The position numbers and the translations under genes are program-made. Positions 12,924 to 55,074 of a DNA stretch of 64,000 nucleotides are shown here, piece by piece. Origin of the DNA: Euglena gracilis (taxonomy: Eukaryota); assembly GCA_039621445.1 (NCBI GenBank), contig CP154954.1:13200716-13264715 (forward strand), written 5' to 3'. How positions within the stretch are numbered: position 1 is the stretch's first letter; each line of letters opens with the position of its first letter. The notes below the pieces were generated by a model. The model made no database searches and was not told where the DNA came from. It saw only the letters and a program-made list of their open reading frames with translations.

Positions 12924-12968
12924 CTGTTCATCAGCCCAGAGGTCCGTGCCCTCGGACCTCGGGCTCCC

Positions 12969-29197: not shown

Positions 29198-29299
29198 GGT
29201 GGCTGTAAGCGCCAATGCGGCGTCTTTCAGAAACCTCGTCAGGTATTTGCCTGACACCCTGTTCGGGTATTTGCCCGAACACCCCTTCGAAGACCCTTT

Positions 29300-35406: not shown

Positions 35407-35429
35407 GCGGTATATATATTATATACCGC

Positions 35430-39400: not shown

Positions 39401-39586
39401 GCGTCAGTCGCTTCCACCACCGCGATTCCGCGGCGGGAGGAACGCGAACGCAGCCCCTCCGTCACCATTCTGGAGGCAGCGCCGCCGTCTCCGACAGGAA
39501 CGGCTGTATCCGTCGTCTCTGCCCCGCGAGCGGCAGGGGAACGATCAGTTTCCCCGGCCCCCGCGGCGGCTCCTGTCTGTCCACCG
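36416..39586 (+). pseudogene. Unknown ORF3, 5' part; interrupted by element M and resuming at 52721
   Basis: Fragments 36416, 37372, 37951 and 38609; sequence continues ccaccg|gtgggtggggacgagg across the insertion. Confidence 0.85.
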
Positions 39587-39588
39587 TT

Positions 39589-40293
39589 TGTACGGGATAA
39601 CCCCCTTCGCTGCCTCGCCTGTTCCAGGTCCGTGGGGTTTCCCTGTCCCTGCGTGGGATCGATTACCCTGCCCAGTTGAATTTCAATTCCCCGCGCGGCC
39701 TTTGTTAAAAATTGTTTCATTTTCTTGGGTTAAAAAGACCTTTTTCCTTTTTGGGGTTGGTGTGGGGTGGGTCCTTGGGGGGGTCACAAATCGGGCATAA
39801 AACACCTGTAGGTATTGCTCAAAGCAGCGAAATGCTTTCAAATTGGTGGTCGTGGTCAGTGAAGGTCTTCGGTGCCGGCGAACTGGCGCTTCTTAGGCAC
39901 ACCAGCAGCAACAACTCCTGCTTCAGACTTCACTTCAGATCACAGGACCAATGCTTGAACAGATAATCAACTTCCACTTCCAATGAAATCTTGACAAACT
40001 TGAATTGGCTTGAAACTTGAACCAAATAGGCCAATGGCAAATAGATAATCAGATTGAGCAAGGACAGAGTAGTTACAGAGCCCTGTGGAACAGGTTGTAA
40101 AATCGTGGTTAAAATCTGGTCAGAGGTTAAAATTCAGTTAGGAGGGGATTATCCTAATTGTTTCATCATTGAAACTGTAGGCCCCTGGTTGGGTCAAGTC
40201 CCCTGGTTAGTTCTGTGGGCGCCTGGGTTAGCTTTTAAGGTTAGCGCCTGAGGTTAGCTAACTTACCCGGGCACTCAGCACCCCTGACTCACA
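39589..40293 (-). repeat. 3' LTR of element M
   Basis: tgtacgggataacccc...ccctgactcaca; roughly 15 differences from the 5' LTR by eye. Confidence 0.95.
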
Positions 40294-42219
40294 CTCCCCT
40301 TCCCAAGGAGTTGTTTACAACTCTTTTCGACTCACTTAGGAAGGGGTGCGGAGTGAGTTTGTTGTAAGGGGGCTGGCCGTTTATGTTTTTGGTCACAGGC
40401 TGGTCAAACATTCCCTCGGGGGGGGGGGCCTGGTTTTTTTTTTCAGGTGGCTGTCCCCCCCAGGTCCCTTGTCGTGTGGGGGGGGGCAGGCGCCAGGCGC
40501 CGACCACAGCCCCCCCCCCTTTTTTTAAAACAAAAAGGGGGCAGCTCCCGTTCGGGGGTTCCGCCTCCACCTGCCAAGCGGTCAGTCGCCGGCCAGGGGC
40601 AAATTTTTACAAAATTCAAGCGAAGGCTGAGTCAGAGTCTTTCGGTTAAAATCAGGCTGGGGCAGGGCCCGGTCCGGTCCGGTGGCTGGTTTCCCCACGT
40701 TTGGTTTCCGGGGGGGGGGGCAGGCATCCAGCACCGCCCACAAACAAAACTTATTTGTCTGCTTTTATTTTGTGGGGGGGCAGTTGGCTGGGCCCCAGTT
40801 TTTTTTTTCAGCCTCGGTGGCGCACCCCTCCCAGGTCCAGGTCCTGAACGGGGGGGGGGGCACGCAAACGCTGCCTACCTCAGCCAAAAAGTCGTTTTGA
40901 ATTCTTTTTTACACTCCCTGGGGTGTATCCTGGCACCCCGGATCTGTCAGGCGTGGGGGGGGGGGGGCAGCAGGATCCTTAATGCCCCTCTTCCGCTCCA
41001 CCCCCTCTCTTTCGTCAAACGTTTTGTGTAGTTGAAAAATGCACAAATTAAGCGGAGGGCTGGGTTTCAGTTGAGCCCTCTACGCTCTGGGTCAGACCAG
41101 GCCTGGCCAACCCAGGTTCTGGTTTCTTTTTCTTTTTTCTTTCTTTGCAGGTCCGGGGCTGCCCCCCCCCTCTAGTCCCTTCGTAGCCTCAGGGGGGGCG
41201 GCAGGTGTCAAGCGCTGCCCACGGTCTGTTTTGGGGGGGGGGGGCAGTTGGCTGGGCCCCCCATCTTTTCCTTTCTTGTCTCTTTTTTTTCTTTTCTTTT
41301 TGCTTTTTTTGTTTTTTGTGTGCGGTGGCTGGACCCCCCCCTCCCAGGTCTCATGTCGGGGGGGGGACGGCAGGCGCCAAGCGCCGCTGCCCCCCCCCCT
41401 TTTTTTAGTAACAAATCTCTGCCCCAACCTTAGGCTGCCCGTGGGGGGGAACCCAGGTCCTCTCTGAGGGAGGGGGGCCCCCTAGGTTCAGTGGGGGGGG
41501 GGCCCCCCCGGGTTCGGCGTGGGGGGGGGGGGGCGCTCCAGGTTCAGTGTGGGACAGCTTCCCTTCCCACTGCGGTTGAAGAAACGGTCTGAGAGCTCTG
41601 GACAGGTAAAGGGGGGCTGCGAGGGGGCAGCCCGCTCCAATATTGGGGTGTGGGGGTAAGGGAGCCTCCAGGGGGGAGCTAGCCCCAGAGGTCCCGGAGG
41701 TACCAGGGGGTGGGGCGTCGCGGTGGCGAGTCGTCGTCGGAGGAGGACGGGGAGGTTGGCGACGCCAGGGGGGACGGGCTCCGGTCCGGGGTCCCGATGT
41801 AGAGGGGGGGGCTGAGGGAGCGGGGGCTGCGGGGGCTGCTGCATACGGAGCGCCCGCGCTCCCTCCGGGGGGGTTGTGTGGGTGTTGGGGTGGGCTGGGT
41901 TGGCGTCGGGGTGGGTATGCGTGAGGTTGGGGGTGGGCTGCTTGCTGGCTGGGTAGGGGTGGGTGTGGGTGCTCTCCAGCAGCTGGCGGGGAGGAGTACG
42001 GCCTCGAGGGCCTTGCGTAGGGGTGGGGGTAGTATGGTGGGGATGATGAAGTCGGGGGTTGGGGGTGGCTGGTATGGGGGAGGGGGTGGGCGTCGAAGGG
42101 GTTGAGGTCGAAAGTAGGGGTGGTGATGTTGGGGTTGTTGGTGTAGGTGTTGGCGTTGTGGACGTCGATGTCGGGACATCTGTGAGGGAATGTGGGGATG
42201 ATGAAGACAAGGAACCTTG

Positions 42220-43560
42220 TCACTTCATCAATTCCAACAATTCCTTGACGTCCAAATCCACCCCGTTCTCCACACAACAGGCAACCACGTCCTTGTTGAT
42301 TCTAAAGAAAAAATTCCCCAGTGGTTCCCATTTGTCCGCTTCTGGCCCAAATCCTTTCCACCGCACCAAAAATTCTGTCTTTCCGTTTTCATGTCGGTGG
42401 TTGAGCACCCTTTCCACCTCCCTCTCGTCGGGTCCAACCTCCAGTTCTTGTGCTTTCCCACACCAAAAATACAAAGGCACGGGGGTGGTCGAGTAAAGGT
42501 CTTCCACGTGTGGTTTCAGTTGGGAACGGTGGGCTGGTTGTCGCTTCCCCGGCTGAAGCTCCACCACATAGGAGTGGTCTCCCACTCTTTCCGAAACCAC
42601 CACTGGCCCTTTCCACCTGGGTTCCAACTTGTCGGTTCCAGGCTGTCGTTCAGGTTGGTACCAAACCTTGGAACCAATTTGAAGGGCTGGGGGTTCACGT
42701 CGTTTCTGGTTCACAGCCTCTTTCCGAGCCTCCAGTTTTTCATTGAGCGTTTGGGCCACCCTCCTGTCTTGTTCCTTCATTCGCTTGAGGAATTCGGTTG
42801 CACCCTCAGCCTCCCGCTGTGGTTTGTGCGGAATCCCACACAAGGGTCGGTGTCGCCCAAAAACAATTTCATAAGGGGACAATCTAACCTCACCCGGCAC
42901 GTCGTGAATGGCTCTCAGGGCCCGTGGGAGGAGTTCCACCCACGGGACACCGTTTTCTGCAGCCAGTTTTGCAAGTTTCCGCATTACCTGCTGCCCGGCT
43001 ACCTCTGCCCTTCCGTTCGCCTGATGGCGGTAAGCCTGTCCATAGGCAACCCTTACACCGTGTGCTGCGCACAGAGTTTTCCACCAGGCTGCTATGAACT
43101 GTGGAACCCTGTCGGAACTCACCACCGAGGGGATTCCGAACAGATCCCACTGTAGAAACATTTCCTTGGCCACCTTTTCAGCTGTGAGACCCTTGTTAAG
43201 ATGGGGGGTAGCAACCATCCACCCACTCAATCGGTCCACACAAAGTGCCAAAGTGTCGTATCGTTTCCCTTCAAAAGTGGTTTACGGTAGTGCAAAGAGG
43301 TCGACCGCCACGCTGTCCATCAGGTGGGGCGGGACCGGTGTTGGTTGTATTGGACACTTGAAGGGTTGATGGTTTGGTTCAGTGACCTGACACGTTTCAC
43401 ACATCCCCATCGTTTTGCTGGTCAGTTTTTTTGCGTGTTTTTTTTGCGAAAAGAAACCACCGACCCATCTGCTCCCACAGCCGTTCAGCCCCTGGGTGTC
43501 CCGCCGCTTCGTGGTGTTCCCTGATGACCCTCCCCATGACACCCCTTGGTACACACAAGA
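42220..43560 (-). pseudogene. pol: Integrase (HHCC, D-D-E, GPY/F) plus chromodomain of element M, split by two frameshifts near 43440 and 43280
   Basis: HHEAAGHPG...CETCQ; VAVDLF; SSDRVPQF; QANGRAE; WKGP; EVERVLNHR...FLVRWKGFGPEADKWEP. Confidence 0.93.
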
Positions 43561-46500
43561 GTCCGTGTTTGAAGAGCATTCCGTTTTCAAATCGGAAGCC
43601 CTCAGGCCATTCTTTGAACCCCGAATCCTCCAACCCCTTGAGCACAGGGCCCCACTTGGGGCACCCGCTGTACCCGCTCCTCCAGTCCTCGTCCATCACC
43701 GACCGCGACCCTGTCGGTGGAAGCTCCGGGGCGTGCACTCCCCTTGATGGAGGTCCCACAGGCAGGCTCGTCGAAGATGAGGGACGCTGCGCGTCCTCGA
43801 GTCCGTTCTCCCCTGGACTTGCTGTTTTTGGAGGGTCCACAGGGTCCTCTTCCAAGGTTCTTCGCCTAGGGGGGTCTTCCTCTGTGGCTGTCCTCTTGGC
43901 CATTTCTTTTTCTGGGCTTCCCTTTTCTTGTGTGCCTTCGGTGTCCCTGTCCTTGGGTTTTGAAGTTTTTGAAGTTTTTTCTGGGGGGGTCTCCTTCCCT
44001 GGTGTGACTTTACTCGTTGTGGCCGAATCCTCACCAGTCTTGGCCCCTCCCCTTGTTCTGACGGCCACAACGAGGGGTGGGTCTCCCAATTTTTTCTGTG
44101 CCCGTAGCAATTCCTTCATTGAAACCACTGAGCAGCCCCTTTCCTCCTTCCTTTCCTGTTCGATTATTTCTTGCATGAGGCGGTCATCCTCCTCACTGCC
44201 GTGCACACTGACGTCGGCAAACGCCTGTGAGGCGGGATAGGCCCACCTGCTCAAGGCGTCAGCCACCACGTTGTCCTTCCCAGGTACGTAGGCTACCGTG
44301 ATGTCAAATTTTGAAAGGAGTTCGTGCCATCTGGCCCTCCGTCCCGACAACCCTGTGGCTGTGTCCAGGTTTTCTGTGGCCCAGCACTCGATTGCCTTGT
44401 GATCGGTCAGGACCAGCACCGGTTGCATACCGAACCATGAGGCCCATTTCTGAAGGGCCAGGATCACCGCGTATGTCTCCTTGTCCCGTGGTGTCCAAGT
44501 CCTGACCTGTCCCGGTGCCAATTTCCGTGAACAAAATGCCACTGGGGCAGTTTTCTTGGTCTGTGCCGTTGTGGTGTCCAGTTTCCCCAATCCATTCTCC
44601 ACAAACTGCTCCAAGGCAGCCCCCACAGCCCTGCCACTGGCATCCACTCGGAGGATGAATGGCTTGTCGGGGTTGACTGTTTGCAGTTTGAGGCTGCCCA
44701 ACAGTTTGTCCTTGATGGCCTGGAACGCCTTGCGTTCCTTCTCCCCGAAAAACACAGGCATCTGGCTCCCCTTTTTTCCCAGTCCCTTTTTCACCTTGAG
44801 TTTTCCCATCAGGTCCGCTGCCAGCTCCGCGTATCCTGGGATGTAGGATGAGTAGTAGTTGGTGAATCCCAGGAATGCGCGGAGGGCTGTGATGGTTTGC
44901 GGGTCTTCCCACTTTTCCAGGGCCATCAGTTTTCCTGGGGCTGGTCTCCGTTGTCCTCCCCCCAAGAGGTGTCCGCAGAATTCCACTTCATGCACAAAAA
45001 ACTTACATTTTTTTATGTCGGCTACGAGCAGCTGTTTCTTGAGTGCCTCCATGACTCTGCGGATGTCCTTGTCGTGCTGGAGGATTGTTGCCTCTTCCGT
45101 TCCCTGCCAAACTGTTCCTACGATGATGTCATCTACGTAGGGGTTGGCAATGTCTGCGACCTCCTCCAGGCTGTATTCAATGACCCTCTGGAAAATTGGG
45201 ACTCCGTTTTTCATCCCCATCACCACTACTTTCCACTGCTTCGTTCCTCTTGGTGTACTACAGCAGGTGTAGGGTCGGGATTCCTTTCTCATGCGTACCT
45301 GATGGAAAGCATCCTTTAGGTCCAACACACTGTACATTGCTCGTTGACCCTGTTGGACCAAGATGTCTTCGATGCGGGGGAGGGGGTTTGCGTCTGTCAC
45401 CGTGGCCTCGTTCAGGGCCCTGAAATACACCACCCCCCTCCACTTTCCCCCTTTCTTGGCCACCACTAACGTGGGGCTGGACCAGTCACTTCTCCCATCC
45501 TCCACCTTTTCATCCCTGACCCACTCGTCGACCATGTCCAGGAGTGCCTGTCGGCGTTCTCCGGTCATGTGGATGGGTCTTTGTTTTTTTGCCACCGTCC
45601 CAGGTTTGAGTTCTATTTTCCCGAAACCCAGTGGACCCCGTTCAGGGGGGTTTGGGTAGATCTTGTCCCTCAACACCACTCCCTCGTAGTCTTTACGCAG
45701 CTTTGCGACCAAATCTGTCACCCTGTCTCCCTCCACAGCCTGCCCTTCAGGTACGGCTATCACCCCCTGGACCCCCTGTGGGGCTTTGCGTTTTCTGGTT
45801 ACCAGATGCTGGGCCAGATTTTCCAAAACTGTTTCGTCTTCAAACAAAAATTCTTCCGTTTCACCTGCTTCTGCAGGCGCCTGCAGGTTCATGGCCCGCA
45901 CCTTGCTGACTTTCTTCAAAATTTTTCTGTCACCCTGTTCCCGTTCTCTTACTCCTTTCCAACTTGTCAGCAGGAGCAATGGTTCCCCTATCAGGGCCAG
46001 TGAATGTAGGTGTGGAAAAACCCCTAAGTGGTGTTGCTCCATCCAGGGATACCCCAAAATGGCATCCACCTGGATTGCCGCGTCGTGGAAGGTCCCCGTG
46101 GTTGTCCATTCCCTTGTGTTGTCTTGGTTGAAAATCTGGGCCGTGAATTTCAGTGTTAGTGTCGTTTCATGCAACCCTCCCCCCATCCGTGTGCCGTCGG
46201 CAGTGACGAGGGCCAAGGGGTGGTTTGACACCGTGAAGGCTCCTGGGGGTAGGAGGTCTTTTCTGATCAGGTTGGTTTGGGCCCCTGTGTCCACGAGGGC
46301 CTTCAGGTCCACCGTTTCACCATTCGGGCAGACCGCACGAATGCCAATCAGAAGTTGCTTGGACTTCCCCCGTTTCACCACCTGTCCCAACAGTCGTTCC
46401 GATGCTGGCCCAAGCAACCGTTTTGGCAGGTAAACGTTTTCATGGTGCCTCCGTGGGATTTTTGGCTGTGCCGCAGGCTCTTGTGTGTTTTGTTCATCTT

Positions 46501-46585
46501 TCCAACCAGCCAAATCTTGGATCAGTTTCTCTGGAATTCGATACTTTTTGTTTCTGGAAATACTCGTCGTGTTTGAGATTTTCAC
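43397..46585 (-). CDS. pol: Pol polyprotein segment: end of C5-MTase, aspartic protease, reverse transcriptase, RNase H
   Basis: ALVDTGA and DAILGYPW (PR); FRALN, LDLKDAFHQV, YVDDI (RT); VDASG, TDHKAI, NVVADALSR (RNase H). Confidence 0.95.
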   Translation of the reverse strand: MKISNTTSISRNKKYRIPEKLIQDLAGWKDEQNTQEPAAQPKIPRRHHENVYLPKRLLGPASERLLGQVVKRGKSKQLLIGIRAVCPNGETVDLKALVDTGAQTNLIRKDLLPPGAFTVSNHPLALVTADGTRMGGGLHETTLTLKFTAQIFNQDNTREWTTTGTFHDAAIQVDAILGYPWMEQHHLGVFPHLHSLALIGEPLLLLTSWKGVREREQGDRKILKKVSKVRAMNLQAPAEAGETEEFLFEDETVLENLAQHLVTRKRKAPQGVQGVIAVPEGQAVEGDRVTDLVAKLRKDYEGVVLRDKIYPNPPERGPLGFGKIELKPGTVAKKQRPIHMTGERRQALLDMVDEWVRDEKVEDGRSDWSSPTLVVAKKGGKWRGVVYFRALNEATVTDANPLPRIEDILVQQGQRAMYSVLDLKDAFHQVRMRKESRPYTCCSTPRGTKQWKVVVMGMKNGVPIFQRVIEYSLEEVADIANPYVDDIIVGTVWQGTEEATILQHDKDIRRVMEALKKQLLVADIKKCKFFVHEVEFCGHLLGGGQRRPAPGKLMALEKWEDPQTITALRAFLGFTNYYSSYIPGYAELAADLMGKLKVKKGLGKKGSQMPVFFGEKERKAFQAIKDKLLGSLKLQTVNPDKPFILRVDASGRAVGAALEQFVENGLGKLDTTTAQTKKTAPVAFCSRKLAPGQVRTWTPRDKETYAVILALQKWASWFGMQPVLVLTDHKAIECWATENLDTATGLSGRRARWHELLSKFDITVAYVPGKDNVVADALSRWAYPASQAFADVSVHGSEEDDRLMQEIIEQERKEERGCSVVSMKELLRAQKKLGDPPLVVAVRTRGGAKTGEDSATTSKVTPGKETPPEKTSKTSKPKDRDTEGTQEKGSPEKEMAKRTATEEDPPRRRTLEEDPVDPPKTASPGENGLEDAQRPSSSTSLPVGPPSRGVHAPELPPTGSRSVMDEDWRSGYSGCPKWGPVLKGLEDSGFKEWPEGFRFENGMLFKHGLLCVPRGVMGRVIREHHEAAGHPGAERLWEQMGRWFLFAKKTRKKTDQQNDGDV

Positions 46586-47092
46586 CCGGTGACCCTTCTA
46601 TCCTGGCATCAGGTTGGGACATGTTCTCCCATCACACAGCTTTCCCTGTATTTGCAGGATATCTGGGCTGCCCCAGATTCGTGTTGGCTTTTTGTGCCCC
46701 CAGTCGGAGTATTGACAATAATCCACATCAACAAATGGATATGGTTTCATGTACTCCCTGTGTCTGAGGTACCCGTGTCTGGGATTTTCCCGCCACCATT
46801 TCTGCGGTCGCAGGAATTTCACGATCTCCAGTGACTTTTTGGCCAATGCGTCCCCCTTCTCCAGTTGTCTTGGTCTGGTTATGAGTGCCAGGCTGAATTC
46901 CGTACAGGGAACTCCACAGTCCACCGTGTGGAATTCCCCAGGTTTCAAAACTTTCTTGTAGTCCCACGTCAAGACATCCACCTGAAAATATGCCTGCCAC
47001 TTGGGGTCCAGGTCCACTGTCACCACCTGAAACCCCATTTTTTTGTATGCTTGGCCCACCGACTTGGTACCACAGAAAAGGTCCAGCATTTT
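46510..47092 (-). pseudogene. C5-cytosine DNA methyltransferase domain in the pol frame (one TAG at 46598)
   Basis: Motif I MLDLFCG; VTVDLD; DVLTWDY; motif IV PC (GVPCTEFS); motif VI ENP; YCQY..KPTRIW; terminal KYRIPEKLI located past the stop. Confidence 0.88.
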
Positions 47093-47284
47093 CCGTTTCG
47101 GTTCTGCTGCACGGTCCAAAACGTTTTTTCACGGCAGGTCTGCTTTCCCCAGTGGCTGGTGTTCATCACCCCCCTCCTCTGTCTCCAAAGGTGGAACATG
47201 TTGCACCGTCCCGAAGTTGACCTTGGACGTTGAGTGTGGGGGGGTCATGTGCTGGTGGAAGCCCGTCAGGTAATCACAGCGTTC

Positions 47285-47710
47285 CGTGTGTCCACACACC
47301 AGCAGCACCTCCACTGGCCACTGTGTTTCCCTGCAACCCTTGTCGATCCTGCCAAAAAAATTGGTTTTTGCGGGAAAAGTCATGGACATGAGGGTCAGTT
47401 TTCTGGCCTGTGGGTACCAACCTCGGTGTTTCCACTGAGGCACCACCAAAACTGCGTGGGCCTGGTCTGTCTGAATTTTTTTGATCACCTGTGGGATTTT
47501 GTCGAACGGGGGGTTGATCCACAGGAGGCTGCCCTGCCAATTTTTTTGGAAGGCATCTGTGCCGTGTGGGCTGCCTGGTCCCCACCAACGCGGGAACCGC
47601 TTGTCCTGTTATGTGGCGAAGGCATCCACCTGTGGTTGCAAACCGACATGTGAGATGATCTTTTTCACAAAACTGTCCTGCACATAGTACTGGTTGGTGA
47701 TCCAACGGGA
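47285..47710 (-). pseudogene. Dam-like N6-adenine DNA methyltransferase domain (DIRS/phage type) in the pol frame (one TAA at 47609)
   Basis: Manual read-through translation: QPQVDAFAT*QDKRFPRWWGPGSPHGTDAFQKNWQGSLLWINPPFDKIPQVIKKIQTDQAHAVLVVPQWKHRGWYP; NPPF at 47504-47515. Confidence 0.88.
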
Positions 47711-47929
47711 GGCTGCCCGCCCAAATCTGCAGCAAGCCTCCTCCCGTGGCACCTGAGTCTTTGTGTTTTGTCTTTGTCTGTTTCGTGCTTTCTGGTCTGA
47801 ACCCCTGGCTCCCTTACCTCCCTCCGTTCGCTGTTTCTGCTGCGGTAATGGCTCCTTTCTGTCCCCCTGTTCGGTTTGTTTTCTCAAAGAGTCGCCCCTC
47901 TCGTCCCCTCCCTCCATACCGCAGCTGCT

Positions 47930-50900
47930 TCACTTCTGCCCCTGGGCAGCAACCTGCTGTCCAGTCTGTGGTGGTGCTGTTTTCTGTGTCCACCGCGGTG
48001 GCTGTGGACACTCCCGTTTGAAATGTCCCGGCTGTTCACAGTTGTAACACCGTCCGTCATCTGGAGGTGGCCCGTACCTGGGCTGTCCGGCTGTCCCGGA
48101 GTTCTGTGTCGACTGCCAGGACGGTTGTCCTTTTCCTGAATTTCCCTTCCCGCTCCCCTTCCCAGACCCTTTTCCCTTGCCTTGGTCAGGATGCGAACCC
48201 TGTCCCTTGCCTTTTCCTTTCCCCTTGCTGTAATCCACAGTGGTCCAGCCTGCCCAGCTTTGGCCCTGATTTTGACTCTGTCCCTGATTGTAGGGGGCTG
48301 GGGGCTGGGGTTGTGGGGCACCCGAAGGCTGCCTTTCATTTTCCGGAGTCGGTGGTCTGGGTTTTCGGGAATTGGAACGGGACCGGGCAGGTGGGGGCGT
48401 TTTGCTTCTGGGTCGAGAAGAATTGTTTTCTTTCACCTCCCGGACATACCCCCTTTTGTCACTGGATCTTGATCGATGTTCCCGTGGCTGGTTCTGCCAC
48501 CCCCCGAAATTTTTTCCGAACGTGTCAGATTGTTCCTGACATCTCAGTTCTGTTTCCACCTTTACAAACATCTCCTCCAGGGACAGCTTTGTTTGTACCA
48601 CTGTGAATCTGGGTTGGTGTCCTGAGGCCAGGGCTGTGCCGTTCTTCATCATCAGCAGCTGGGACGCCCTGCTGCCGTTCAGGCTGATGATGAAATCAGT
48701 TCCGTCGGTTGTCACGAGGAACCTTTCGTCAGCCCCAAGTGTGGCTGCCACCAGTCTTGTTACGTCTTCCCTGGTTGCGTCTGAGACCCCAGGTACGTTT
48801 GTCAGCCCCTTCCATTTCAGAGTGGGTCTGTCTTGGTTACTCCTGTCTTGTTCACGAATGCAGTTTCTGCGCATCATTTCGGGCATCCGTTCAGCGACCA
48901 ATGCATACGCATCGTCTGTGGAGGGGTGTTCCAACCGACTGTAGAGCAGTTTGAAGCGTGCTTCAAACTCACTCCATGCCCCCAGAGTCAGTTTTCCATC
49001 GTACCTGGGTTTCAGGTTTTTCAGCTCCTCCTTTATTGCCAGCTGGGTGTCCCCTTCGTACTTTTGGCAGAGCCAATTCCAAAATTCCTGATACCTGATT
49101 TTTTCCCCCCGTTCTTGTCGTCGCTGGAGCTCCAGCCGGCCCGTCTCGTCTAGGCTTCCCTCCAAAATTGTTAGTTTCATGTCATCTGTGAGGGGTCCCT
49201 GTCCAGCTGACAATCGCTTCAGGTAGATGGGAAATTTCACAGAAAAATCTGCAAAATTTCCTTGGAGGAGCGATCTGACCAGGTCTTTTGTCATGGCTGC
49301 ACCCACTGGTCCCATCATCAGCCCAATGGAGGGGGCAGCCTGTGCTGCCACTGGGGCGACAACCGTTTCTGCCACCACATGAAAAATGGGTGTGTATGTG
49401 CTGCCGAATTGGGGACCTGCTGTGTTTTGTGGCCCTGGGTTTTCTTCTGTCACCCATGTGAACAGATCCCGCGTTCGTGGCTGTGAGATCTGGCTGGGAC
49501 CTGTGTTTTCCCGTTGCTGACCCTGCTGTTGCATCATGTTTTTGATTTCCAACAGTTCCCTCTCCAGTCGCTGCTGGTGTTCCAGCATTGGGTCTGTCGG
49601 TTTCGGTCGAGGTTGAAAAGGTTGGGCGTCGGCTGAAAGTTCAAACACAGGTTGGGGTTTGGGGGGTTGGGTCTTTGACACGGGGGAGTCCTGTCGGATT
49701 GAAAGTTTTTTAAATTCTTCTTGTACCGTTTGCACCATTAGGGTTTTTAGGTCAGGGAGGTCCCAACCCACACCTGGCACAGGTTCTCGGGGTCCTCGGG
49801 TCCCCTCCCGGAGCTGTCCTGGGGGTCCTCGGGTCCCCTCCCTGGGCTGTGTTAGGGGGCTTTGGGGCCCCCAGCCCCCCGTTGGGGTCACTGGCTGTGG
49901 GGCCGAGGCTGCTGGCTGTGGGGCTGGGGCCGCTGGCTGGGGTCCCCCCAACCCCATCAGTTCTGCCCAAGCCTCCGGCTGGGGCCCAGATGCCAGCCCC
50001 TGCCCCGTGATGGCTGTGGCTGGGCCTGGGCTTCGCTGCCTTGCTGCAGCAGTTGGCTGGGGTTCTTGGGTTTGCCCCTTCCCGCTTGGCGGTTCTGTTG
50101 TCCGTCTGGACAACTGCCCCACTGGCCCAGGGGCTGGGGTTTCTGGGGTTTTCCCCATCCCCTGTTGCCGCCGGTCGCTGAGAGAGCTAGAGGCTGCTGA
50201 GAAAGAATAAGATTGAGATTTTTCAAAACTTTCTTTTGTCTTTTGTGTCAGTTCAGTCAATTCATTTAAGCTTTTTTCGGTGGCCTCCCATTTCGTTTGC
50301 CACAGTTGGTTCTGACTGTGGAACTCGGCAGTCAGCGATCTACACTGCTGCTGCCAAATTCCAGAGTCTTGCGCTTCTTTCAGTGTTGTTCGTGTAGTGA
50401 GGTCTGTCAGCTGTGCCTCCAACCGTCCCACCTTGTTTACCATCTGTCCCAGTGTGGATGACATGTCGATCAACCTGGCCTGGTCACTGGCTTCCTGCGA
50501 CCCAGTCTTGAAAACCCCCTTTTGCAATTCGCCCAGTACCCTCCTGAATGTCTGGGCCGATTCCTCCACCTTGTGTCCCAGCCCGGTCATTTCCTGGTTC
50601 AGGCGGTCAAATCTTCTTTTGTTGTCGTCGTTTGAGGCCAGGGTGTCCAGACGTCTGGTCAAAATGGCCATTTCCTGTGAAAGCTTAGTCATCCGCTGTT
50701 CCAATGTTTGATCCTGTTGTCCCTCCGACAGTTGTTCCACCCTTGCGTTCAGCCCTTTCATTGCCTTGGTAAAATGTTCTTGTGTTTGTTGAACCCTGTG
50801 GTTCAGTTCCTTCAGCGTCTCGTCACAGTTGCCTGCCAGTGTCCCTACCTGGCGTTCTGTCTCTGCCTCCCGTGATTTCACCTCCCGTTGACTTTCAGCC

Positions 50901-51391
50901 AACCCAGCCATTGTCTGTTCGACCCGCTGCATCCGCATCTGCAATTCTTGAAGCACCTGCTCGTTTTGTTTCTGCTGGCCGAGTAATCCTATGAGGTGTT
51001 GCCCCTGGGTCTGTGTGCTTCCCCCTGCCACTTGCAGCAAACCCTGGAACCAGTTAGTTTTTTCGTCCAGCAGCCCAGCCATCACCTTCAGGTCCCGAAT
51101 CTGTTGTCCCAGCTTCTCAAAGTGTCCCTGGTACAGTCTGTTTTGATTCGTCACCATCCCCTCCAAGTTTTCAGTTACCGTGGCCAGGTTTGTGGACAGC
51201 TCTTCATATCCGCCGTCTGTTCGCCACACCAACCCTTCTGTCCGTTCCCCCTGTGTAATCAGCTGCTGTTCCAAGCGTGTAAACTGTAGTTCTGTGCTGT
51301 TTTGAAGTCGTTGTATCACCTCTGTGGTTTTCTGGTTCACAAACTCAGTGGCTCGCCTGAAAGTTTGCAATTCCTGCTGGAATTCCGTCAT
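47930..51391 (-). CDS. gag: Gag of element M (1153 aa; N-terminal coiled coil, Pro/Gln linker, capsid-like region, GKG repeats, CCHC knuckle)
   Basis: CYNCEQPGHFKREC near the C-terminus; lies between PBS and pol. Confidence 0.88.
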   Translation of the reverse strand: MTEFQQELQTFRRATEFVNQKTTEVIQRLQNSTELQFTRLEQQLITQGERTEGLVWRTDGGYEELSTNLATVTENLEGMVTNQNRLYQGHFEKLGQQIRDLKVMAGLLDEKTNWFQGLLQVAGGSTQTQGQHLIGLLGQQKQNEQVLQELQMRMQRVEQTMAGLAESQREVKSREAETERQVGTLAGNCDETLKELNHRVQQTQEHFTKAMKGLNARVEQLSEGQQDQTLEQRMTKLSQEMAILTRRLDTLASNDDNKRRFDRLNQEMTGLGHKVEESAQTFRRVLGELQKGVFKTGSQEASDQARLIDMSSTLGQMVNKVGRLEAQLTDLTTRTTLKEAQDSGIWQQQCRSLTAEFHSQNQLWQTKWEATEKSLNELTELTQKTKESFEKSQSYSFSAASSSLSDRRQQGMGKTPETPAPGPVGQLSRRTTEPPSGKGQTQEPQPTAAARQRSPGPATAITGQGLASGPQPEAWAELMGLGGPQPAAPAPQPAASAPQPVTPTGGWGPQSPLTQPREGTRGPPGQLREGTRGPREPVPGVGWDLPDLKTLMVQTVQEEFKKLSIRQDSPVSKTQPPKPQPVFELSADAQPFQPRPKPTDPMLEHQQRLERELLEIKNMMQQQGQQRENTGPSQISQPRTRDLFTWVTEENPGPQNTAGPQFGSTYTPIFHVVAETVVAPVAAQAAPSIGLMMGPVGAAMTKDLVRSLLQGNFADFSVKFPIYLKRLSAGQGPLTDDMKLTILEGSLDETGRLELQRRQERGEKIRYQEFWNWLCQKYEGDTQLAIKEELKNLKPRYDGKLTLGAWSEFEARFKLLYSRLEHPSTDDAYALVAERMPEMMRRNCIREQDRSNQDRPTLKWKGLTNVPGVSDATREDVTRLVAATLGADERFLVTTDGTDFIISLNGSRASQLLMMKNGTALASGHQPRFTVVQTKLSLEEMFVKVETELRCQEQSDTFGKNFGGWQNQPREHRSRSSDKRGYVREVKENNSSRPRSKTPPPARSRSNSRKPRPPTPENERQPSGAPQPQPPAPYNQGQSQNQGQSWAGWTTVDYSKGKGKGKGQGSHPDQGKGKGSGKGSGKGNSGKGQPSWQSTQNSGTAGQPRYGPPPDDGRCYNCEQPGHFKRECPQPPRWTQKTAPPQTGQQVAAQGQK

Positions 51392-51852
51392 GTTCTGTAC
51401 GAAACTGGACCACCAGTTTGTGTCGGCGAACCAGTCGTAATGTTCTGGTCCGCCTCAGATTCCTCCACCCCTGCACCGTTGACCTGGAAGTGGTCTTCGT
51501 TCGGGCTCTGTCTTGCCGCTTCCAGGCTCAACAGTTGGTTCTGAGTGTCTGTGCTGGGTTCTGGGTGGAATGTGAGCTGCAGTGGCTGTGTTTCCTGGTA
51601 GATGTCTCCCAGTTCGTCGTCTTCGGCGTCCGTGAACTGTGTCGTCCCTGTATCCTCCTGAGTCCTGGGGTTCTGTTCCCCATCTTGTTCCATTTGAACC
51701 ATCGCAATTGTCACCTGCGACAATTGTGCATTGTCAACGTCGCACCCCAGGGTCCTGGCCATGTCTGTGGTCGTTTCTGTGTCGTATTCCCATTGTTCAG
51801 GTTCCTGGTTCCATTGCAAGTTTTCTGGGGCGGTCATTGTTAATTCTGTCAT
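51388..51852 (-). CDS. Acidic upstream ORF (~154 aa) or frameshifted Gag N-terminus; its stop overlaps the gag start (ATGA)
   Basis: Open frame MTELTMTAP...PVSYRT*; no motif recognised. Confidence 0.4.
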   Translation of the reverse strand: MTELTMTAPENLQWNQEPEQWEYDTETTTDMARTLGCDVDNAQLSQVTIAMVQMEQDGEQNPRTQEDTGTTQFTDAEDDELGDIYQETQPLQLTFHPEPSTDTQNQLLSLEAARQSPNEDHFQVNGAGVEESEADQNITTGSPTQTGGPVSYRT

Positions 51853-52003
51853 TGTGATTCCTGTTGCTGGGGCATTGAAATGGACATCTGTCCTTGAACC
51901 AGCCGACCTAGCGACGGCTGATGAGACAGATTCCTGTGGTTCTGTGGTATTTTCCTGTTGTTCAGTCCAGCCGCCTTCGGGGGAACTGAAAATGGGCAAA
52001 AAC

Positions 52004-52015
52004 CCTCTGCTACCA
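52004..52015 (-). promoter_or_regulatory. Primer-binding site TGGTAGCAGAGG (initiator tRNA-Met type)
   Basis: Lies 2 nt inside the 5' LTR CA end. Confidence 0.88.
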
Positions 52016-52017
52016 TT

Positions 52018-52720
52018 TGTAAGGGATAACCCCCTTTGCTGCTCCGCTTGTTCCAGGTCCGTGGGGTTTCCCTGTCCCCGCGTATGATCGATTACCCTGC
52101 CCAGTTGAATTTCAATTCCCCGCGCGGCCTTTGTTAAAAATTGTTTCATTTTCTTGTGTTAAAAGACCTTTTTCCTTTTTGGGGTTGGTGTGGGGTGGGT
52201 CCTTGGGGGGGTCACAAATCGGGCATAAAACACCTGTAGGTCTTGCTCAAAGCAGCGAAATGCTTTCAAATTGGTGGTCGTGGTCAGTGAAGGTCTTCGG
52301 TGCCGGCGAACTGGCGCTTCTTAGGCACACCAGCAGCAACAACTCCTGCTTCAGACTTCACTTCAGATCACAGGACCAATGCTTGAACAGATAATCAACT
52401 TCCACTTCCAATGAAATCTTGACAAACTTGAATTGGCTTGAAACTTGAACCAAATAGGCCAATGGCAAATAGATAATCAGATTGAGCAAGGACAGAGTAG
52501 TGACAGAGCCCTGTGGAACATGTTGTAAAATCGTGGTTAAAATCTGGTCAGAGGTTAAAATTCAGTTAGGAGGGGATTATCCTAATTGTTTCACCATTGA
52601 AACTGTAGGCCCCTGGTTGGGTCAAGTCCCCTGGTTAGTTCTGTGGCGCCTGGGTTAGCTTTTAAGGTTAGCGCCTGAGGTTAGCTAACTTACCCGGGAA
52701 CTCAGCACCCCTGACTCACA
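52018..52720 (-). repeat. 5' LTR of element M
   Basis: Direct repeat of 39589-40293. Confidence 0.95.
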
Positions 52721-55074
52721 ACCGGTGGGTGGGGACGAGGAACTCCCTCAGGAAGGCGAGAACGTGAAGGATATCCTCTACGCTGCTCTACCTGCACTGG
52801 CACAGCCTCGGCCAGACGAAGCACCCACTGAGGATATACCTGTGACTGCAACGCCTGTCCCGACGGCTGAGCCTCAACCCGAGGTGACTGGTATGGTCGT
52901 CGAGGATATCCTCGAAGAACCTACCAGCCCCGCAGCACGCACCTCATTAGGAGGCCGCGTGCTCGGCGCCGTAGTCACCGGCATTACTGCCGTGGCTGCT
53001 GCACTAACGCCACGAGGTGGATGCGTAGCATCAAGCTCCGCCGCTGAGGTCGTGGAGATGCCGGATGTCGGCGTCCCTGCACCCCCATCTCCGGCAGAAG
53101 TGCAACCACCGTTAGGGGATGAACCCCTGCCGACAGAGACATCTGTCGCACCGGCTACAACGGAGGTTCAACCTCCCGTAGCACCTGCGCCAGCGGTTGT
53201 GGAGGATCAACCTCCTCGACCGGATGTCGAAATGGAAGTGAAGGAGATACCCCCACGACCACCGACACCGCGCAGGATCCCTGCCGTCCCGAGGACAATG
53301 GCAGAGTTTATGGGAGTGTCAGCGCCTGTGGAAGCACCGATTCCGGTGACGACCACAGCACCACGCCCCGTCGGGCAGGATGACCCTGCTCGGCGCAGGG
53401 CGGCTGAACAACCCCAGGAACGAGTGCCGACCCCTCGGAGCGTCATGCGCGATCCAGCGGTCATTATGCCTGCTTCGCCCAGACGGCAAACGTCTGCTCC
53501 GGCACCATCGGCTCCTGATACCAGGAGTAAGCTACAGGCGTCGCCTCCTGATTCCGGGAGAGCGAAGCCGAAAGGAGGCAAACCGGGTGCTGTACCCTGT
53601 AAGCCCCCTGCCAAAGGCAGTGATGGGAAACCACCACCGAAAGGTAGCGCTGGAGGTCAGACTGGCGGACAGTCGAAAGGCCCTACGACAATGCACGACT
53701 ATTCGGCCGTTACATCGTCCGGGTACGGCAAGAGCAAACCAAAAGGTAAGGCTCATGGTCGACAGGCCCAATCTTCCGCCGGATCGACGGATGAGGAGCA
53801 GGATGAACCTTCTTCACCTCCCGTGTCTGCGGATGCCCAGCTCTGGACTCAGGAAATCCTGACCAGACTAGGCACCGTGGAAGAGAGGACGAAGAAACTG
53901 GCTGCTATTAGGCACCAGAAAGGGTCACATAATCGATGGATTCAGCCCCTCTTCGTCCGAGGAGAACCTTTCCACTATGTCCCGGAACATACCTGGACAT
54001 TCTGGAACAGGCGCTCACCCAGAGTACTGGCACAGTACTTTGGCGAGGATTGTGTGTTTTATTTCCAGCACGGCACGTCCTTTACCTGGACGTGCACCGT
54101 GTGCCACCATCTGCGGCACTACCAACCGCTTGTGCATGTGTGCAAGCGGCAGGTGCAATCCACGACGTTCCATCACAGGGCATATGTGCCGAACTGTGTG
54201 GCGCTCGTATGTGGCGAGTGCCTGAACGCCTGGAAGCACAGCTTGAACTACTCCTACAGTGAGAATGCTCACGACAGGGATATCCCTGCCTTGTGCATCA
54301 ACTGTACAGGGGCCAAGTTCGTGCAGACTGCTGATGGAGCAGTCACCACCATTGTCCCCCAGCACTTGGAGACACTGGAGAAGTGGAAGAAGGAGTACAA
54401 GCAGGTGGAAGGCCGCCTGAACCACTCCGACTTCCGAAAGGTAGAAAGCTACCGCCACACGAGAATGGCCCGTGAGTTCCAGATCGACGCTGGGGCAATG
54501 CGCCTCGCCGTCGAGGAACACGCCAAGGTAAGAATGCCTTACCTCTGGACCGATGGCGACTGGGAGACACAGGTTTACCCCCTGTTCTCCAAGCGTCAGC
54601 ACGGCGGATACGCCTTGCCACTGTGGCCTCCTGAAGAACACGATTTTAGTGGACTTCAGAGGTTGGTTGGCGGCTGTATTACGGCCCCATACTGCAAGAG
54701 CTCGGACAGCGAAGTGGATGTATGACATCAACTTCAAGCAGACCCCGGGGATGCCCCCGCAGGTGTCTGCGAATCACCCCCGGATGAATTACATCATCTG
54801 GCCGGTGATGCTGCCCAGAATTTTCTGGGAACAGCTCCAACGGTACCTTCAGCACATTGCTGACCGTACCAGGGAGAAGCTGCCGGACAGTTGGATCAAT
54901 GACTTGGAGACCCCATCCTTTGATGTCAAAGATCCGGAGCACAACACCATCCGGAGCGAATAACCTCCGCAGCGTTCCCCACGCCAACTGGAGTTGGTTG
55001 AGGACCCATTAGGGGACCCTCAACACGACTATTGGCGTGAGGTGCGCGAACGCCCACCCGATAAAGGCAGGTGA
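52721..55074 (+). pseudogene. Unknown ORF3, 3' part (frameshift near 54645, TAA at 54961)
   Basis: Collinear with other units. Confidence 0.85.

What the first reader, a model, noticed from the sequence alone, without database searches (positions are those of the whole stretch)
46510..47917. Gypsy LTR retrotransposon with tandem adenine (Dam-like) and cytosine (C5) methyltransferases in its Pol frame
Seen: ORF pieces 47609-47917, 47129-47488, 46598-47119 and 43397-46585 are all in one minus-strand frame, separated only by single stops. Read through, they give an N6A-MTase (DAFA, DAF..W, WINPPF, VVPQW..WYP), then a C5-MTase (LDLFCG, PC, ENP, KPTRIW), whose last motif (KYRIPEKL) falls inside the PR-RT ORF. 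This ties the MTases to the polyprotein. Established: Dam-like domains occur in DIRS tyrosine-recombinase elements, and C5-MTase-carrying retrotransposons are known from Symbiodinium dinoflagellates and a charophyte. Inference: both enzyme classes together, N-terminal to the protease in a chromodomain DDE-integrase Gypsy, is an architecture I do not recognise. It could mark its own cDNA with 6mA and 5mC, for protection, host mimicry or self-regulation.
Basis: partly seen in the sequence, partly recalled or inferred. Interest (0 to 1): 0.95.

Follow-up and report, generated by a model that had tools for sequence, protein, structure and literature searches.

The report
Decayed dual-methyltransferase Gypsy retrotransposon (EpiLTR type)
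This is a real but dead copy of a chromodomain Gypsy retrotransposon whose Pol frame carries both an adenine and a cytosine DNA methyltransferase domain, an unusual design that a May 2026 preprint has already described in Euglena as "EpiLTRs".

Summary
On the minus strand, 39587-52720 is a 13.1-kb LTR retrotransposon with 705/707-bp LTRs and a 4-bp target duplication. It is nested in another repeat. Gag, a Dam-like domain, a C5-MTase domain and PR-RT-RNaseH share one frame, broken by three internal stops (TAA, TGA, TAG). The other two frames hold 58 and 34 stops.

Both MTase calls are supported. Pfam hits on this copy are sub-threshold, but intact relatives pass the curated cut-offs. Phage MTase profiles match. 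Family-invariant residues, including NPP, PC and ENP, are kept. AlphaFold models (pLDDT 89 and 91) match N6-adenine and C5-cytosine MTases.

Relatives with unbroken ORFs show the same Dam-DNMT-PR(-RT-RH) order, so this is not a one-off insertion.

The copy is dead: stops inside both MTase domains, one stop and a 2-nt deletion in integrase, and a 1-nt deletion in gag.

The architecture is not new. bioRxiv 10.64898/2026.05.21.726589 describes Euglena "EpiLTRs" with DAM, DNMT and a chromodomain.

Two points may go beyond it. The two MTase cassettes sit in at least seven orders within Pol. The DNMT module is one clade, nearest to compact phage-type C5-MTases.

Function (self-methylation of cDNA) remains inferred.

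The parts
52721..52724 (.). Target-site duplication, upstream copy (ACCG on the + strand)
   Evidence: Three uninterrupted copies of the host repeat (around 32952-32955, 63553 and 20964) read ...GTCCACCGGTAGG... at the site. The occupied site has ACCG on both sides of the element. A 6-bp duplication with one mismatch is an alternative.
52016..52720 (-). 5' LTR (705 bp), starts TGTGAG
   Evidence: Direct repeat with 39587-40293. 14 mismatches plus 2 gap columns in 707 aligned columns.
52004..52015 (-). Primer-binding site, TGGTAGCAGAGG, directly after the LTR
   Evidence: Read. That it complements the 3' end of initiator tRNA-Met is recalled, not tested; no tRNA gene lies in the window.
47933..51850 (-). 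Gag: long coiled-coil/Q-rich protein with a CCHC zinc knuckle at 48002-48052; this copy has a 1-nt deletion near 51448/51449
   Evidence: ORF 47933-51454 has zf-CCHC at E 1.6e-6. The N-terminal part is in another frame (ORF 51388-52158). Contigs of other copies carry one more base behind 51448: all depth in X2, X8 and X14, and 10745 of 19346 in X1. The start near 51850 is my reading of the first Met, not tested.
47930..47932 (-). Gag stop codon TGA, in frame with Pol
   Evidence: Pol ORFs of relatives also begin shortly upstream of the first MTase domain, so a gag/pol stop is probably native. A 12-bp stem starts 5 nt downstream, z -2.2: a weak hint of read-through.
47255..47734 (-). Dam-like (PF05869-type, DIRS-type) N6-adenine MTase domain; NPPF at 47504-47515; split by TAA at 47609-47611
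   Evidence: Pfam Dam E 2e-4 to 4e-5, 21.4-23.7 bits against a cut-off of 28.1. phrog_111 E 4e-6. All 14 invariant columns of 25 sequences are kept. AF2 pLDDT 88.7. Best folds: PCIF1 Z 11.2, ErmC' 8.9, T4 Dam 8.4, EcoDam 8.3, M.TaqI 7.8.
47129..47131 (-). In-frame TGA in the linker between the two MTase domains
46505..47098 (-). Compact C5-cytosine DNA MTase domain (~200 aa): motif I LDLFCGTKS, catalytic PC in VPCTEFS (46892-46912), ENP (46781-46789), KPTRIW, KYRIP; split by TAG at 46598-46600
   Evidence: Pfam DNA_methylase E 4e-3, 17.1 bits against a cut-off of 22. phrog_757 E 4.5e-10 and phrog_363 E 6.8e-10. All 15 invariant columns are kept. The profile hits DNMT1 in the PDB at E 1.7e-4. 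AF2 pLDDT 91.4. All listed Foldseek hits are C5 DNA MTases, best 9.6e-8. VIA ranks 1-14 are C5-MTase-fold enzymes: DNMT3B Z 13.6, M.HhaI 13.2.
46157..46324 (-). Aspartic protease (DTGA)
   Evidence: Weak Pfam gag-asp_proteas hit, E 0.04. The DTGA motif is seen in the translation. PR segments of relatives match.
44969..45460 (-). Reverse transcriptase
   Evidence: RVT_1 E 1.1e-25, 90.9 bits.
44306..44674 (-). RNase H
   Evidence: RT_RNaseH E 1.8e-19 and RT_RNaseH_2 E 6e-17.
43400..43552 (-). Integrase H2C2 zinc finger, broken by a frameshift in this copy
   Evidence: Integrase_H2C2 E 1.6e-3 on frame A. The CxxC half lies in frame B. One contig of run X14 has 2 more bases behind 43445.
42223..43281 (-). 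Integrase core (rve, 43027-43254), SH3-like (42508-42636) and chromodomain (42319-42420); preceded by an in-frame TAA at 43282-43284
   Evidence: Chromo E 1.6e-9, 38 bits above the cut-off of 25.1. rve E 6e-6, 26.9 bits below the cut-off of 32.6. SH3_Tf2-1 E 1.3e-4.
40305..42219 (-). 1.9-kb low-complexity spacer (G/C runs, proline-rich ORF 41405-42301) between chromodomain and PPT; function unknown
   Evidence: Many joints and skipped repeats in contigs of other copies.
40294..40304 (-). Polypurine tract GGGAAGGGGAG, directly before the 3' LTR
   Evidence: Read.
39587..40293 (-). 3' LTR (707 bp)
39583..39586 (.). Target-site duplication, downstream copy (ACCG on the + strand)

Best explanation
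Window 39587-52720 (minus strand) is one decayed insertion of a Ty3/Gypsy chromovirus-type LTR retrotransposon of the 'EpiLTR' kind. Its layout is gag (CCHC), in-frame stop, then Pol. Pol runs: Dam-like N6-adenine MTase, compact C5-cytosine MTase, protease, RT, RNase H, DDE integrase, chromodomain.

Shown: the anatomy, the identity of both MTase folds, retention of their family-invariant residues including the catalytic motifs, and intact relatives with the same layout. Also shown: this copy cannot make the proteins, because it has three stops in the MTase region, a stop and a 2-nt deletion in integrase, and a 1-nt deletion in gag.

Inferred mechanism for intact family members, about 35% likely as stated. 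Pol is made by read-through of the gag stop and is cut by the protease. The two MTase modules act inside the particle or pre-integration complex on the newly made cDNA, or on the RNA:DNA hybrid. A new copy therefore arrives already carrying 5mCpG and 6mA. 5mCpG is the default state of the Euglena genome according to the preprint, so it would be host mimicry or protection. 6mA is a mark of permissive chromatin that host AMT1 could maintain. The chromodomain steers integration into repeat-rich chromatin; this copy sits inside another repeat.

The host is probably a euglenid (Euglena gracilis or a relative). This is inferred, not shown.
For: Anatomy:
- LTR pair, empty-site comparison and TSD.
- PBS and PPT.
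- Domain hits.
- Single frame with 5 stops against 58 and 34.

Dam-like domain:
- PF05869 on this copy at 21-24 bits.
- 21 of 25 aligned sequences (24 relatives plus the window copy) match at E<=1e-3.
- 25 of 25 match phrog_111.
- 14 of 14 invariant columns are kept.
- Fold matches N6-adenine MTases.

DNMT domain:
- 17 of 25 aligned sequences match PF00145 at E<=1e-3; the window copy is not among them (E 4e-3 on a 176-aa stretch).
- 25 of 25 match phrog_757 and phrog_363.
- 15 of 15 invariant columns are kept.
- Fold matches C5-MTases over residues 5-213.

Full-length relatives: 4 of the 6 scanned pass both Pfam curated cut-offs. Bit scores (Dam/DNMT) are P0286 33.5/26.4, P0215 45.3/26.7, P0190 37.6/25.3 and P0198 44.7/26.2.

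Same order in unbroken ORFs: P0021 (891 aa, Dam-DNMT-PR, one stretch over query 67-474, E 4.8e-111) and P0169 (1443 aa, Dam-DNMT-PR-RT-RH).

Nearest RT relatives: P0167, P0169 and P0170 show an MTase domain or its tail upstream of PR. P0168 begins at the last DNMT motif, KYRIPE.

Family copies in four sequencing runs cover all 30 bins of the element. Contigs bridge the gag/Dam junction: X2 record 20 at 47603-47988 and X14 record 12 at 47712-47984.

Prior description: EpiLTRs in Euglena with DAM + DNMT + chromodomain; CG 5mC is the default state and 6mA sits on a subset of promoters in E. gracilis.

Host hint: RT relative P0178 (57% identity, Dam + chromodomain) carries the source name EG_transcript_113. 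That naming occurs in E. gracilis papers (listing only).

CpG observed/expected is 0.53 in the element, 0.73 in the window and 0.83 in the repeat it interrupts. This is compatible with long-term CpG methylation of the family.
Against: - On this copy both Pfam matches are below the curated cut-offs: 21.4-23.7 against 28.1, and 14.4-17.1 against 22. The window's 213-aa DNMT stretch gave no Pfam family at E<=1e-3.
- The Dam-family profile found nothing credible among solved-structure sequences.
- The best fold match of the Dam-like domain is an RNA cap m6Am enzyme (PCIF1, Z 11.2). DNA Dam enzymes score lower (Z 8.3-8.4), in the range the tool calls common.
- No activity is shown. [quoted passage not shown] It also reports low or undetectable LTR expression in E. 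gracilis.
- The host is not demonstrated: no genome is held for the window and run organisms are coded.
- LTR differences are not enriched for CpG transitions: 2 of 14.
- I could not see the preprint's supplementary figures, so I cannot confirm that its Euglena EpiLTR has this exact domain order.
Confidence: 0.85

Rival explanations
1. The MTase segment is a one-off event in this copy: a nested insertion, a captured host gene fragment or an assembly chimera. It would not be a family feature of the retrotransposon.
For: The window is a dense nest of repeats and the element itself sits inside another repeat. The preprint notes that nested insertions or assembly artefacts may create chimeric TEs in E. 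gracilis.
Against: - The segment is in the same frame as gag and PR-RT.
- The last DNMT motif lies inside the PR-RT ORF.
- Unbroken ORFs from other assemblies have the same order: P0021 and P0169.
- 41 of 288 retrieved database proteins carry both domains.
- Contigs from four runs cover the segment and bridge its upstream junction.
- All 41 TE-linked DNMT domains in the tree form one clade, SH-aLRT 97.
Confidence: 0.03
2. The domains are real and conserved, but the Dam-like module does not methylate double-stranded DNA. It would act on RNA (for example the element's own transcript) or only on the RNA:DNA hybrid. Alternatively it is a non-catalytic binding module.
For: - The best structural match is the RNA cap-adenosine N6-MTase PCIF1 (Foldseek E 2.2e-5, VIA Z 11.2), followed by rRNA adenine MTases (KsgA, Erm, DIMT1, METTL5). 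T4 Dam and EcoDam score Z 8.3-8.4.
- The preprint reports no gain of 6mA in dam-deficient E. coli and itself raises a hybrid substrate.
Against: - The NPPF motif and the PF05869/phrog_111 matches point to phage DNA adenine MTases.
- The preprint reports more 6mA-methylated insertions among DAM-LTRs than among other LTR elements in three species.
- Fold rank among Rossmann MTases does not fix the substrate.
Confidence: 0.2
3. The in-frame stops are not damage. They would be recoding signals or a variant genetic code, so this copy could still express the full polyprotein.
For: The stops are single and the frame is otherwise open over 1512 codons. Gag and Pol are in one frame, separated by TGA, with a stem 5 nt downstream at z -2.2.
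Against: - The three internal stops are three different codons: TAA, TGA, TAG.
- Two of them lie inside conserved domains, where relatives have ordinary residues.
- P0003, 94% identical, has Q at the TAG position (read by eye).
- The same copy also has two frameshifting deletions that other copies lack, and a further stop in integrase.
- LTRs differ at 14 sites, so some decay is expected.
Confidence: 0.03

Closest known systems
EpiLTRs of Euglena gracilis (Fernandez-Moreno et al., bioRxiv 10.64898/2026.05.21.726589, 22 May 2026)
   Same: Ty3/Gypsy-like LTR element with a chromodomain plus both a DAM (PF05869-type) and a DNMT domain in Pol. An E. gracilis transcript is among the RT relatives.
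   Different: It places the DNMT as sister to DNMT4 in a tree of eukaryotic families. My searches find compact phage-type C5-MTases as nearest look-alikes. This copy is degenerate.
Cymbomonas tetramitiformis EpiLTR (same preprint)
   Same: Chromovirus-like element with DAM, DNMT and a chromodomain.
   Different: There the DNMT is appended at the 3' end of pol. Here both MTases lie between gag and the protease. The preprint infers independent assembly.
DIRS retrotransposons with a Dam-like MT domain
   Same: The same type of small NPP(F/Y) adenine MTase domain (PF05869). The preprint derives LTR-borne DAMs from DIRS elements.
   Different: DIRS elements use a tyrosine recombinase and have split or inverted repeats. 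This element has a DDE integrase (rve), a chromodomain, direct LTRs and a 4-bp TSD.
KnitGypsy-Dnmt3, SymbioDIRS-Dnmt3 and SymbioLINE-Dnmt (de Mendoza et al. 2018, PMC5890265)
   Same: A C5-MTase inside a retrotransposon coding region, with proposed self-methylation of cDNA (passages).
   Different: Those carry DNMT3-type or Symbiodinium-specific DNMTs and no adenine MTase. Here the DNMT is a ~200-aa compact type and is paired with a Dam-like domain.
Compact standalone C5-MTases of tailed phages (phrog_757 / phrog_363)
   Same: 30-40% identity over the whole domain, with the same motifs and length. 30 standalone ORFs of 198-355 codons were found in metagenome contigs. L022 lies beside a DNA polymerase III alpha-like gene (named by eye) and a second MTase. 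L014 lies near a primase. The nearest ESM Atlas clusters are labelled 93-100% viruses, Uroviricota.
   Different: Those are free-standing genes in phage-like contigs. Here the domain is a cassette inside a retrotransposon polyprotein.

Membership tests
Ty3/Gypsy (Metaviridae) chromovirus-type LTR retrotransposon | Direct LTRs flanked by a short target-site duplication | tested here: met
   705/707-bp LTRs with 14 mismatches and 2 gap columns. 4-bp ACCG duplication against three empty-site copies.
Ty3/Gypsy (Metaviridae) chromovirus-type LTR retrotransposon | Pol order PR-RT-RNaseH-IN with a DDE integrase | tested here: met
   RVT_1 90.9 bits and RT_RNaseH 70.3 bits. The rve hit is 26.9 bits, below the cut-off of 32.6 on this copy. 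Relatives score 39.7-41.7 bits.
Ty3/Gypsy (Metaviridae) chromovirus-type LTR retrotransposon | Chromodomain at the C-terminus of integrase | tested here: met
   Pfam Chromo 38 bits, above the cut-off of 25.1, at 42319-42420.
EpiLTR (DAM + DNMT + chromodomain LTR element) | DAM domain and DNMT domain encoded in the same element as the chromodomain | tested here: met
   Both domains lie in the Pol frame between gag and PR, and the chromodomain lies after IN.
EpiLTR (DAM + DNMT + chromodomain LTR element) | Host is Euglena gracilis or Cymbomonas tetramitiformis | not testable with these tools
   No genome is held and run organisms are coded. The only indirect evidence is an E. gracilis-named transcript at 57% RT identity.
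EpiLTR (DAM + DNMT + chromodomain LTR element) | DNMT belongs to the clade the preprint places sister to DNMT4 | not tested
   No DNMT4 sequences were available to me. My tree had only TE-linked and standalone compact DNMTs.
Pfam Dam (PF05869), N6-adenine DNA MTase | Profile match at the curated cut-off | tested here: inconclusive
   This copy scores 21.4-23.7 bits against 28.1. Four intact relatives score 33.5-45.3 bits. 21 of 25 aligned sequences match at E<=1e-3.
Pfam Dam (PF05869), N6-adenine DNA MTase | Catalytic (D/N)PP(Y/F) motif on a Rossmann MTase fold | tested here: met
   NPPF lies at 47504-47515, and N80 and P81 are invariant in 25 sequences. Model pLDDT is 88.7. Folds: PCIF1 Z 11.2, T4 Dam 8.4, EcoDam 8.3.
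Pfam Dam (PF05869), N6-adenine DNA MTase | Methylates adenine in DNA | not testable with these tools
   The preprint's E. coli assay of related DAMs was negative.
C5-cytosine DNA MTase (PF00145) | Profile match at the curated cut-off | tested here: inconclusive
   This copy scores 14.4-17.1 bits against 22. Four intact relatives score 25.3-26.7 bits. 17 of 25 aligned sequences match at E<=1e-3. phrog_757 matches the window copy at E 4.5e-10.
C5-cytosine DNA MTase (PF00145) | Motif I (FxGxG-like), catalytic Pro-Cys (motif IV) and ENV-type motif VI on the C5-MTase fold | tested here: met
   LDLFCGT, VPCTEFS (C75 invariant) and ENP (E114 and P116 invariant). Fold: DNMT3B Z 13.6, M.HhaI Z 13.2, aligned over 192-200 of 213 residues.
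C5-cytosine DNA MTase (PF00145) | Sizeable target-recognition domain between motifs VIII and IX | tested here: not met
   The whole domain is about 200 aa against 327 for M.HhaI. Only a short Cys-rich stretch (LCDGRTC...H) lies there. It works like a C5-MTase core, but its target recognition must differ.
DIRS retrotransposon | Tyrosine recombinase instead of a DDE integrase | tested here: not met
   The Pfam scan of the Pol and IN ORFs gives rve, Integrase_H2C2 and Chromo, and no phage-integrase family.

The most novel reading that the evidence does not exclude
Both methyltransferases of this retrotransposon lineage would be phage-type cassettes. The DNMT would be a compact tailed-phage C5-MTase (phrog_757 type), captured once rather than derived from a eukaryotic DNMT4-like gene. 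It and the Dam-like cassette were then moved around inside Pol, giving at least seven different orders relative to PR, RT and RNase H. The Dam-like cassette is closest in fold to the RNA m6Am writer PCIF1. It may act on the RNA or the RNA:DNA hybrid of the replication intermediate rather than on duplex DNA.
Probability: 0.25. Interest if true: 0.6.

Novelty: already known. Interest (0 to 1): 0.3.

Why it matters
A mobile element that brings its own writers for two different DNA marks, plus a chromatin reader, can in principle set the epigenetic state of each new copy. This bears on how transposons persist in heavily methylated genomes and on where eukaryotic methylation enzymes come from. A 2026 preprint already makes that point for Euglena. 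This window therefore adds an annotated, precisely delimited but dead example, and an independent rediscovery from raw sequence. It also adds two leads that may go beyond the preprint: the many positions of the cassettes within Pol, and the phage-like affinity of the DNMT module.

Tried and rejected
- No whole genome is held for the window, so a family-wide copy census and dN/dS were not possible.
- Earlier scan notes: three look-ups returned nothing.
- Rfam found no family in the window and ARAGORN found no tRNA.
- P0001 alone against solved-structure sequences gave only a weak generic SAM-MTase hit, E 0.72. The Dam-family profile gave one chance-level lectin hit, E 0.87.
- tblastn of the MTase region against the window found no second copy.
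- The metagenome scan used one DNMT motif-I pattern and returned 51 loci. Of the 33 whose ORFs I extracted, 30 were standalone compact DNMTs rather than close copies of this family. Only L001-L003 are TE-type, at 41-52% identity. It therefore did not give DNA for a selection test.
- Read laying printed only 40 of 565 base differences, and none at the three stop codons. Whether other copies have sense codons there is unknown, except for Q in P0003 at the TAG site.
No statement on habitat or expression is made.
- A variant genetic code or programmed read-through of the internal stops was considered and rejected (see rivals).
- The outgroup in the DNMT tree sits on a very long branch (8.6), so the rooting, and hence the direction of transfer, is not established.
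Full report
**Observation**

Translating 43397-47932 on the minus strand gives 1512 codons with only five stops. These are the gag TGA at the start, the terminal TGA, and three internal ones: TAA 47609-47611, TGA 47129-47131 and TAG 46598-46600. The other two minus-strand frames have 58 and 34 stops. The gag ORF (47933-51454, CCHC zinc knuckle, E 1.6e-6) is in the same frame.

**The element**

A self-comparison of the window shows that 39587-52720 interrupts another repeat. Uninterrupted copies of that repeat run straight through the site; 29882-35413 is one of them. The occupied site has ACCG on both sides, against a single ACCG in three empty copies.

- The LTRs (52016-52720 and 39587-40293) differ at 14 positions plus 2 gap columns of 707.
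- A PBS, TGGTAGCAGAGG, follows the 5' LTR. Its match to initiator tRNA-Met is recalled, not tested.
- A purine tract precedes the 3' LTR.
- Pfam finds RVT_1 (90.9 bits), RNase H (70.3), Integrase_H2C2, rve (26.9 bits, sub-threshold), a Tf2-type SH3 and a chromodomain (38 bits).

So this is a chromovirus-type Ty3/Gypsy element of 13.1 kb.

**The two MTase domains**

On this copy the Pfam hits are weak. Dam PF05869 scores 21.4-23.7 bits against a cut-off of 28.1. DNA_methylase PF00145 scores 14.4-17.1 bits against 22. The 213-aa DNMT stretch gave nothing at E<=1e-3.

The calls rest on relatives.

- An exhaustive HMMER search found 5329 representatives at E<=1e-3.
- Four of six full-length relatives scanned pass both curated cut-offs.
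- In an alignment of 25 Dam-like sequences, 21 hit PF05869 and all 25 hit phage family phrog_111. The window copy keeps all 14 invariant columns, including N-P of NPPF.
- In an alignment of 25 DNMT sequences, 17 hit PF00145 and all 25 hit phrog_757 and phrog_363. The window copy scores E 4.5e-10 and 6.8e-10. It keeps all 15 invariant columns, including the catalytic Cys and E-P of ENP.
- The DNMT profile hits DNMT1 catalytic domains in the PDB at E 1.7e-4.

AlphaFold models, made with X at the stop, are confident: pLDDT 88.7 and 91.4.

- The DNMT model matches C5 DNA MTases over almost its whole length. Foldseek gives a best E of 9.6e-8, and all listed hits are C5 DNA MTases. VIA-align gives DNMT3B Z 13.6, DNMT3A 13.2 and M.HhaI 13.2. 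Ranks 1-14 are all C5-MTase-fold enzymes.
- The Dam-like model matches amino-MTases with an NPPF-type pocket: PCIF1 Z 11.2, ErmC' 8.9, T4 Dam 8.4, EcoDam 8.3 and M.TaqI 7.8.
- Values near 8 are in the range the tool calls common. The fold therefore supports 'adenine-N6 MTase-like' but does not fix the substrate.

**Not a one-off**

- P0021 (891 aa) aligns in one stretch to query residues 67-474 and continues into the protease.
- P0169 (1443 aa) is an unbroken Dam-DNMT-PR-RT-RH ORF with 68% RT identity to the window.
- Of the other nearest RT relatives, P0167 begins inside the DNMT, P0168 begins at its last motif, and P0170 begins at the Dam tail.
- Contigs from four public runs cover all 30 bins of the element and bridge the gag/Dam junction.

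**State of this copy**

- The TAA lies inside the Dam domain, the TAG inside the DNMT, and the TGA in the linker between them.
- Integrase carries a further in-frame TAA (43282-43284) and a frameshift in the zinc finger. One contig of run X14 has two more bases behind 43445.
- Gag has a frameshift where contigs of all four runs have one more base behind 51448.
- P0003, a 94%-identical fragment, has Q where the window has TAG, and has a frameshift of its own (read by eye).

The copy is dead. The three different stop codons, together with the indels, argue against recoding.

**What is known**

PMC5890265 (passages read) describes DNMTs in Symbiodinium LINE and DIRS elements and in a Klebsormidium Gypsy. 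It notes Dam-like domains only in DIRS elements.

bioRxiv 10.64898/2026.05.21.726589 (Results, Discussion and Methods read) reports the following.

- DAM domains occur in Ty3/Gypsy-like LTR elements.
- 'EpiLTRs' are elements with DAM, DNMT and a chromodomain. They are found in E. gracilis and, assembled independently, in Cymbomonas.
- Their DNMTs are placed sister to DNMT4.
- The E. coli 6mA assay was negative.
- In E. gracilis, CG 5mC is the default state, 6mA marks a subset of promoters, and more DAM-LTR insertions are 6mA-methylated than other LTR insertions.

'EpiLTR' occurs in no other paper of the library. Supplements were closed, so I could not check the exact order drawn there.

**Host**

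The host is not shown. One RT relative (P0178, 57% identity, Dam + chromodomain) bears the source name EG_transcript_113, a naming used in E. gracilis papers (listing only). Another relative is labelled Genlisea aurea in NCBI. I take that to be a contaminant, which is an inference.

**What may go beyond the preprint**

First, the cassettes occupy many positions. I classified the 289 stored proteins with HMMs of the two domains and window-derived PR, RT, RH, IN and chromo probes. 41 database proteins carry both MTases, in at least seven relative orders:

- Dam-DNMT-PR-RT
- PR-Dam-DNMT-RT
- DNMT-Dam-PR-RT
- Dam-PR-DNMT-RT
- PR-DNMT-Dam-RT
- DNMT-PR-Dam
- PR-DNMT-RT-RH-Dam

Others have a single MTase after RNase H. 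The sample is biased because it was retrieved with MTase or RT queries, and many ORFs are truncated.

Second, the DNMT module looks phage-like.

- 30 of the 33 metagenome loci I extracted hold standalone ORFs of 198-355 codons.
- L022 places one between a DNA polymerase III alpha-like gene (named by eye) and a second MTase. L014 has one near a primase. L009's neighbours matched no PHROG.
- The nearest ESM Atlas clusters are 181-219-aa DNA_methylase clusters labelled 93-100% viruses, Uroviricota.
- In a quick ML tree, all 41 TE-linked DNMTs form one clade (SH-aLRT 97). The 41 are 40 of 78 picked at random, plus the window; 38 were left out. This clade lies inside a clade with standalone sequences (SH-aLRT 95).
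- The root rests on a very long outgroup branch, and no eukaryotic DNMT families were included.

These are leads, not results. By contrast, the nearest Atlas clusters of the Dam-like domain are eukaryotic. This fits the preprint's TE-borne eukaryotic DAM clade.

**Mechanism**

Shown: the coding layout and conservation of the catalytic motifs across divergent intact ORFs. Inferred: read-through of the gag TGA, protease release of the modules, and methylation of nascent cDNA or hybrid with 5mC and 6mA. Also inferred is chromodomain-guided integration into repeat-rich chromatin. The element's CpG observed/expected of 0.53, against 0.83 in the repeat it interrupts, is compatible with long-term CpG methylation. 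Only 2 of 14 LTR differences are CpG transitions.

**Verdict**

The novelty claim is overtaken by a 2026 preprint, and function is still open.

Noticed in passing
window 1-64000: The whole window is a nest of repeats. Several families recur at 95-99% identity, for example 17536-21204 with 60126-63793, and 26958-29589 with 33065-35696. Their long ORFs (for example 31789-35190 and 2290-5847) have no Pfam family at E<=0.01.
   Followed up: partly
window 12360-17057 (minus): A second gag-like ORF (12972-17057) carries a CCHC knuckle. A weak protease match (28% identity) lies only about 200 nt downstream. This unrelated Gypsy fragment has no room for MTase domains between gag and PR. It is cut off by another repeat near 12251.
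   Followed up: partly
window 41346 / 51986: Contigs in runs X1 and X8 join 41346 directly to 51986, skipping 10,639 bases. The family may therefore have internally deleted, non-autonomous derivatives that lack all coding sequence. The joint has a short side (21 letters) and is weakly supported.
   Followed up: no
window 40305-42219: A 1.9-kb low-complexity stretch lies between the chromodomain and the PPT. It has runs of G and C, short tandem units and a proline-rich 298-codon ORF in another frame. It is variable among family copies, with many joints and skipped repeats. Its role is unknown.
   Followed up: no
window 47830-47925 (minus): A 12-bp stem (GCUGCGGUAUGG pairing with CCAUUACCGCAGC) begins 5 nt after the gag TGA. 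The folding z-score is -2.2. It could be a read-through stimulator.
   Followed up: partly
window 46619-46723 (minus); alignment A2: The short region that replaces a target-recognition domain in the DNMT holds conserved Cys and His residues (DYCQY, LCDGxTC, then GxxxH). This may be a small metal-binding element. The geometry in the model was not checked.
   Followed up: no
protein P0031 (NCBI EPS62093.1): A Dam-PR-DNMT polyprotein fragment of this lineage is deposited as a hypothetical protein of the carnivorous plant Genlisea aurea. It is probably from a protist contaminant of that assembly.
   Followed up: no
locus L022 9986-13398: A phage-like 155-kb metagenome contig carries a compact 228-aa C5-MTase of the same family as the retrotransposon's DNMT. 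It lies next to a DNA polymerase III alpha-like gene and a second, 650-aa canonical C5-MTase.
   Followed up: partly
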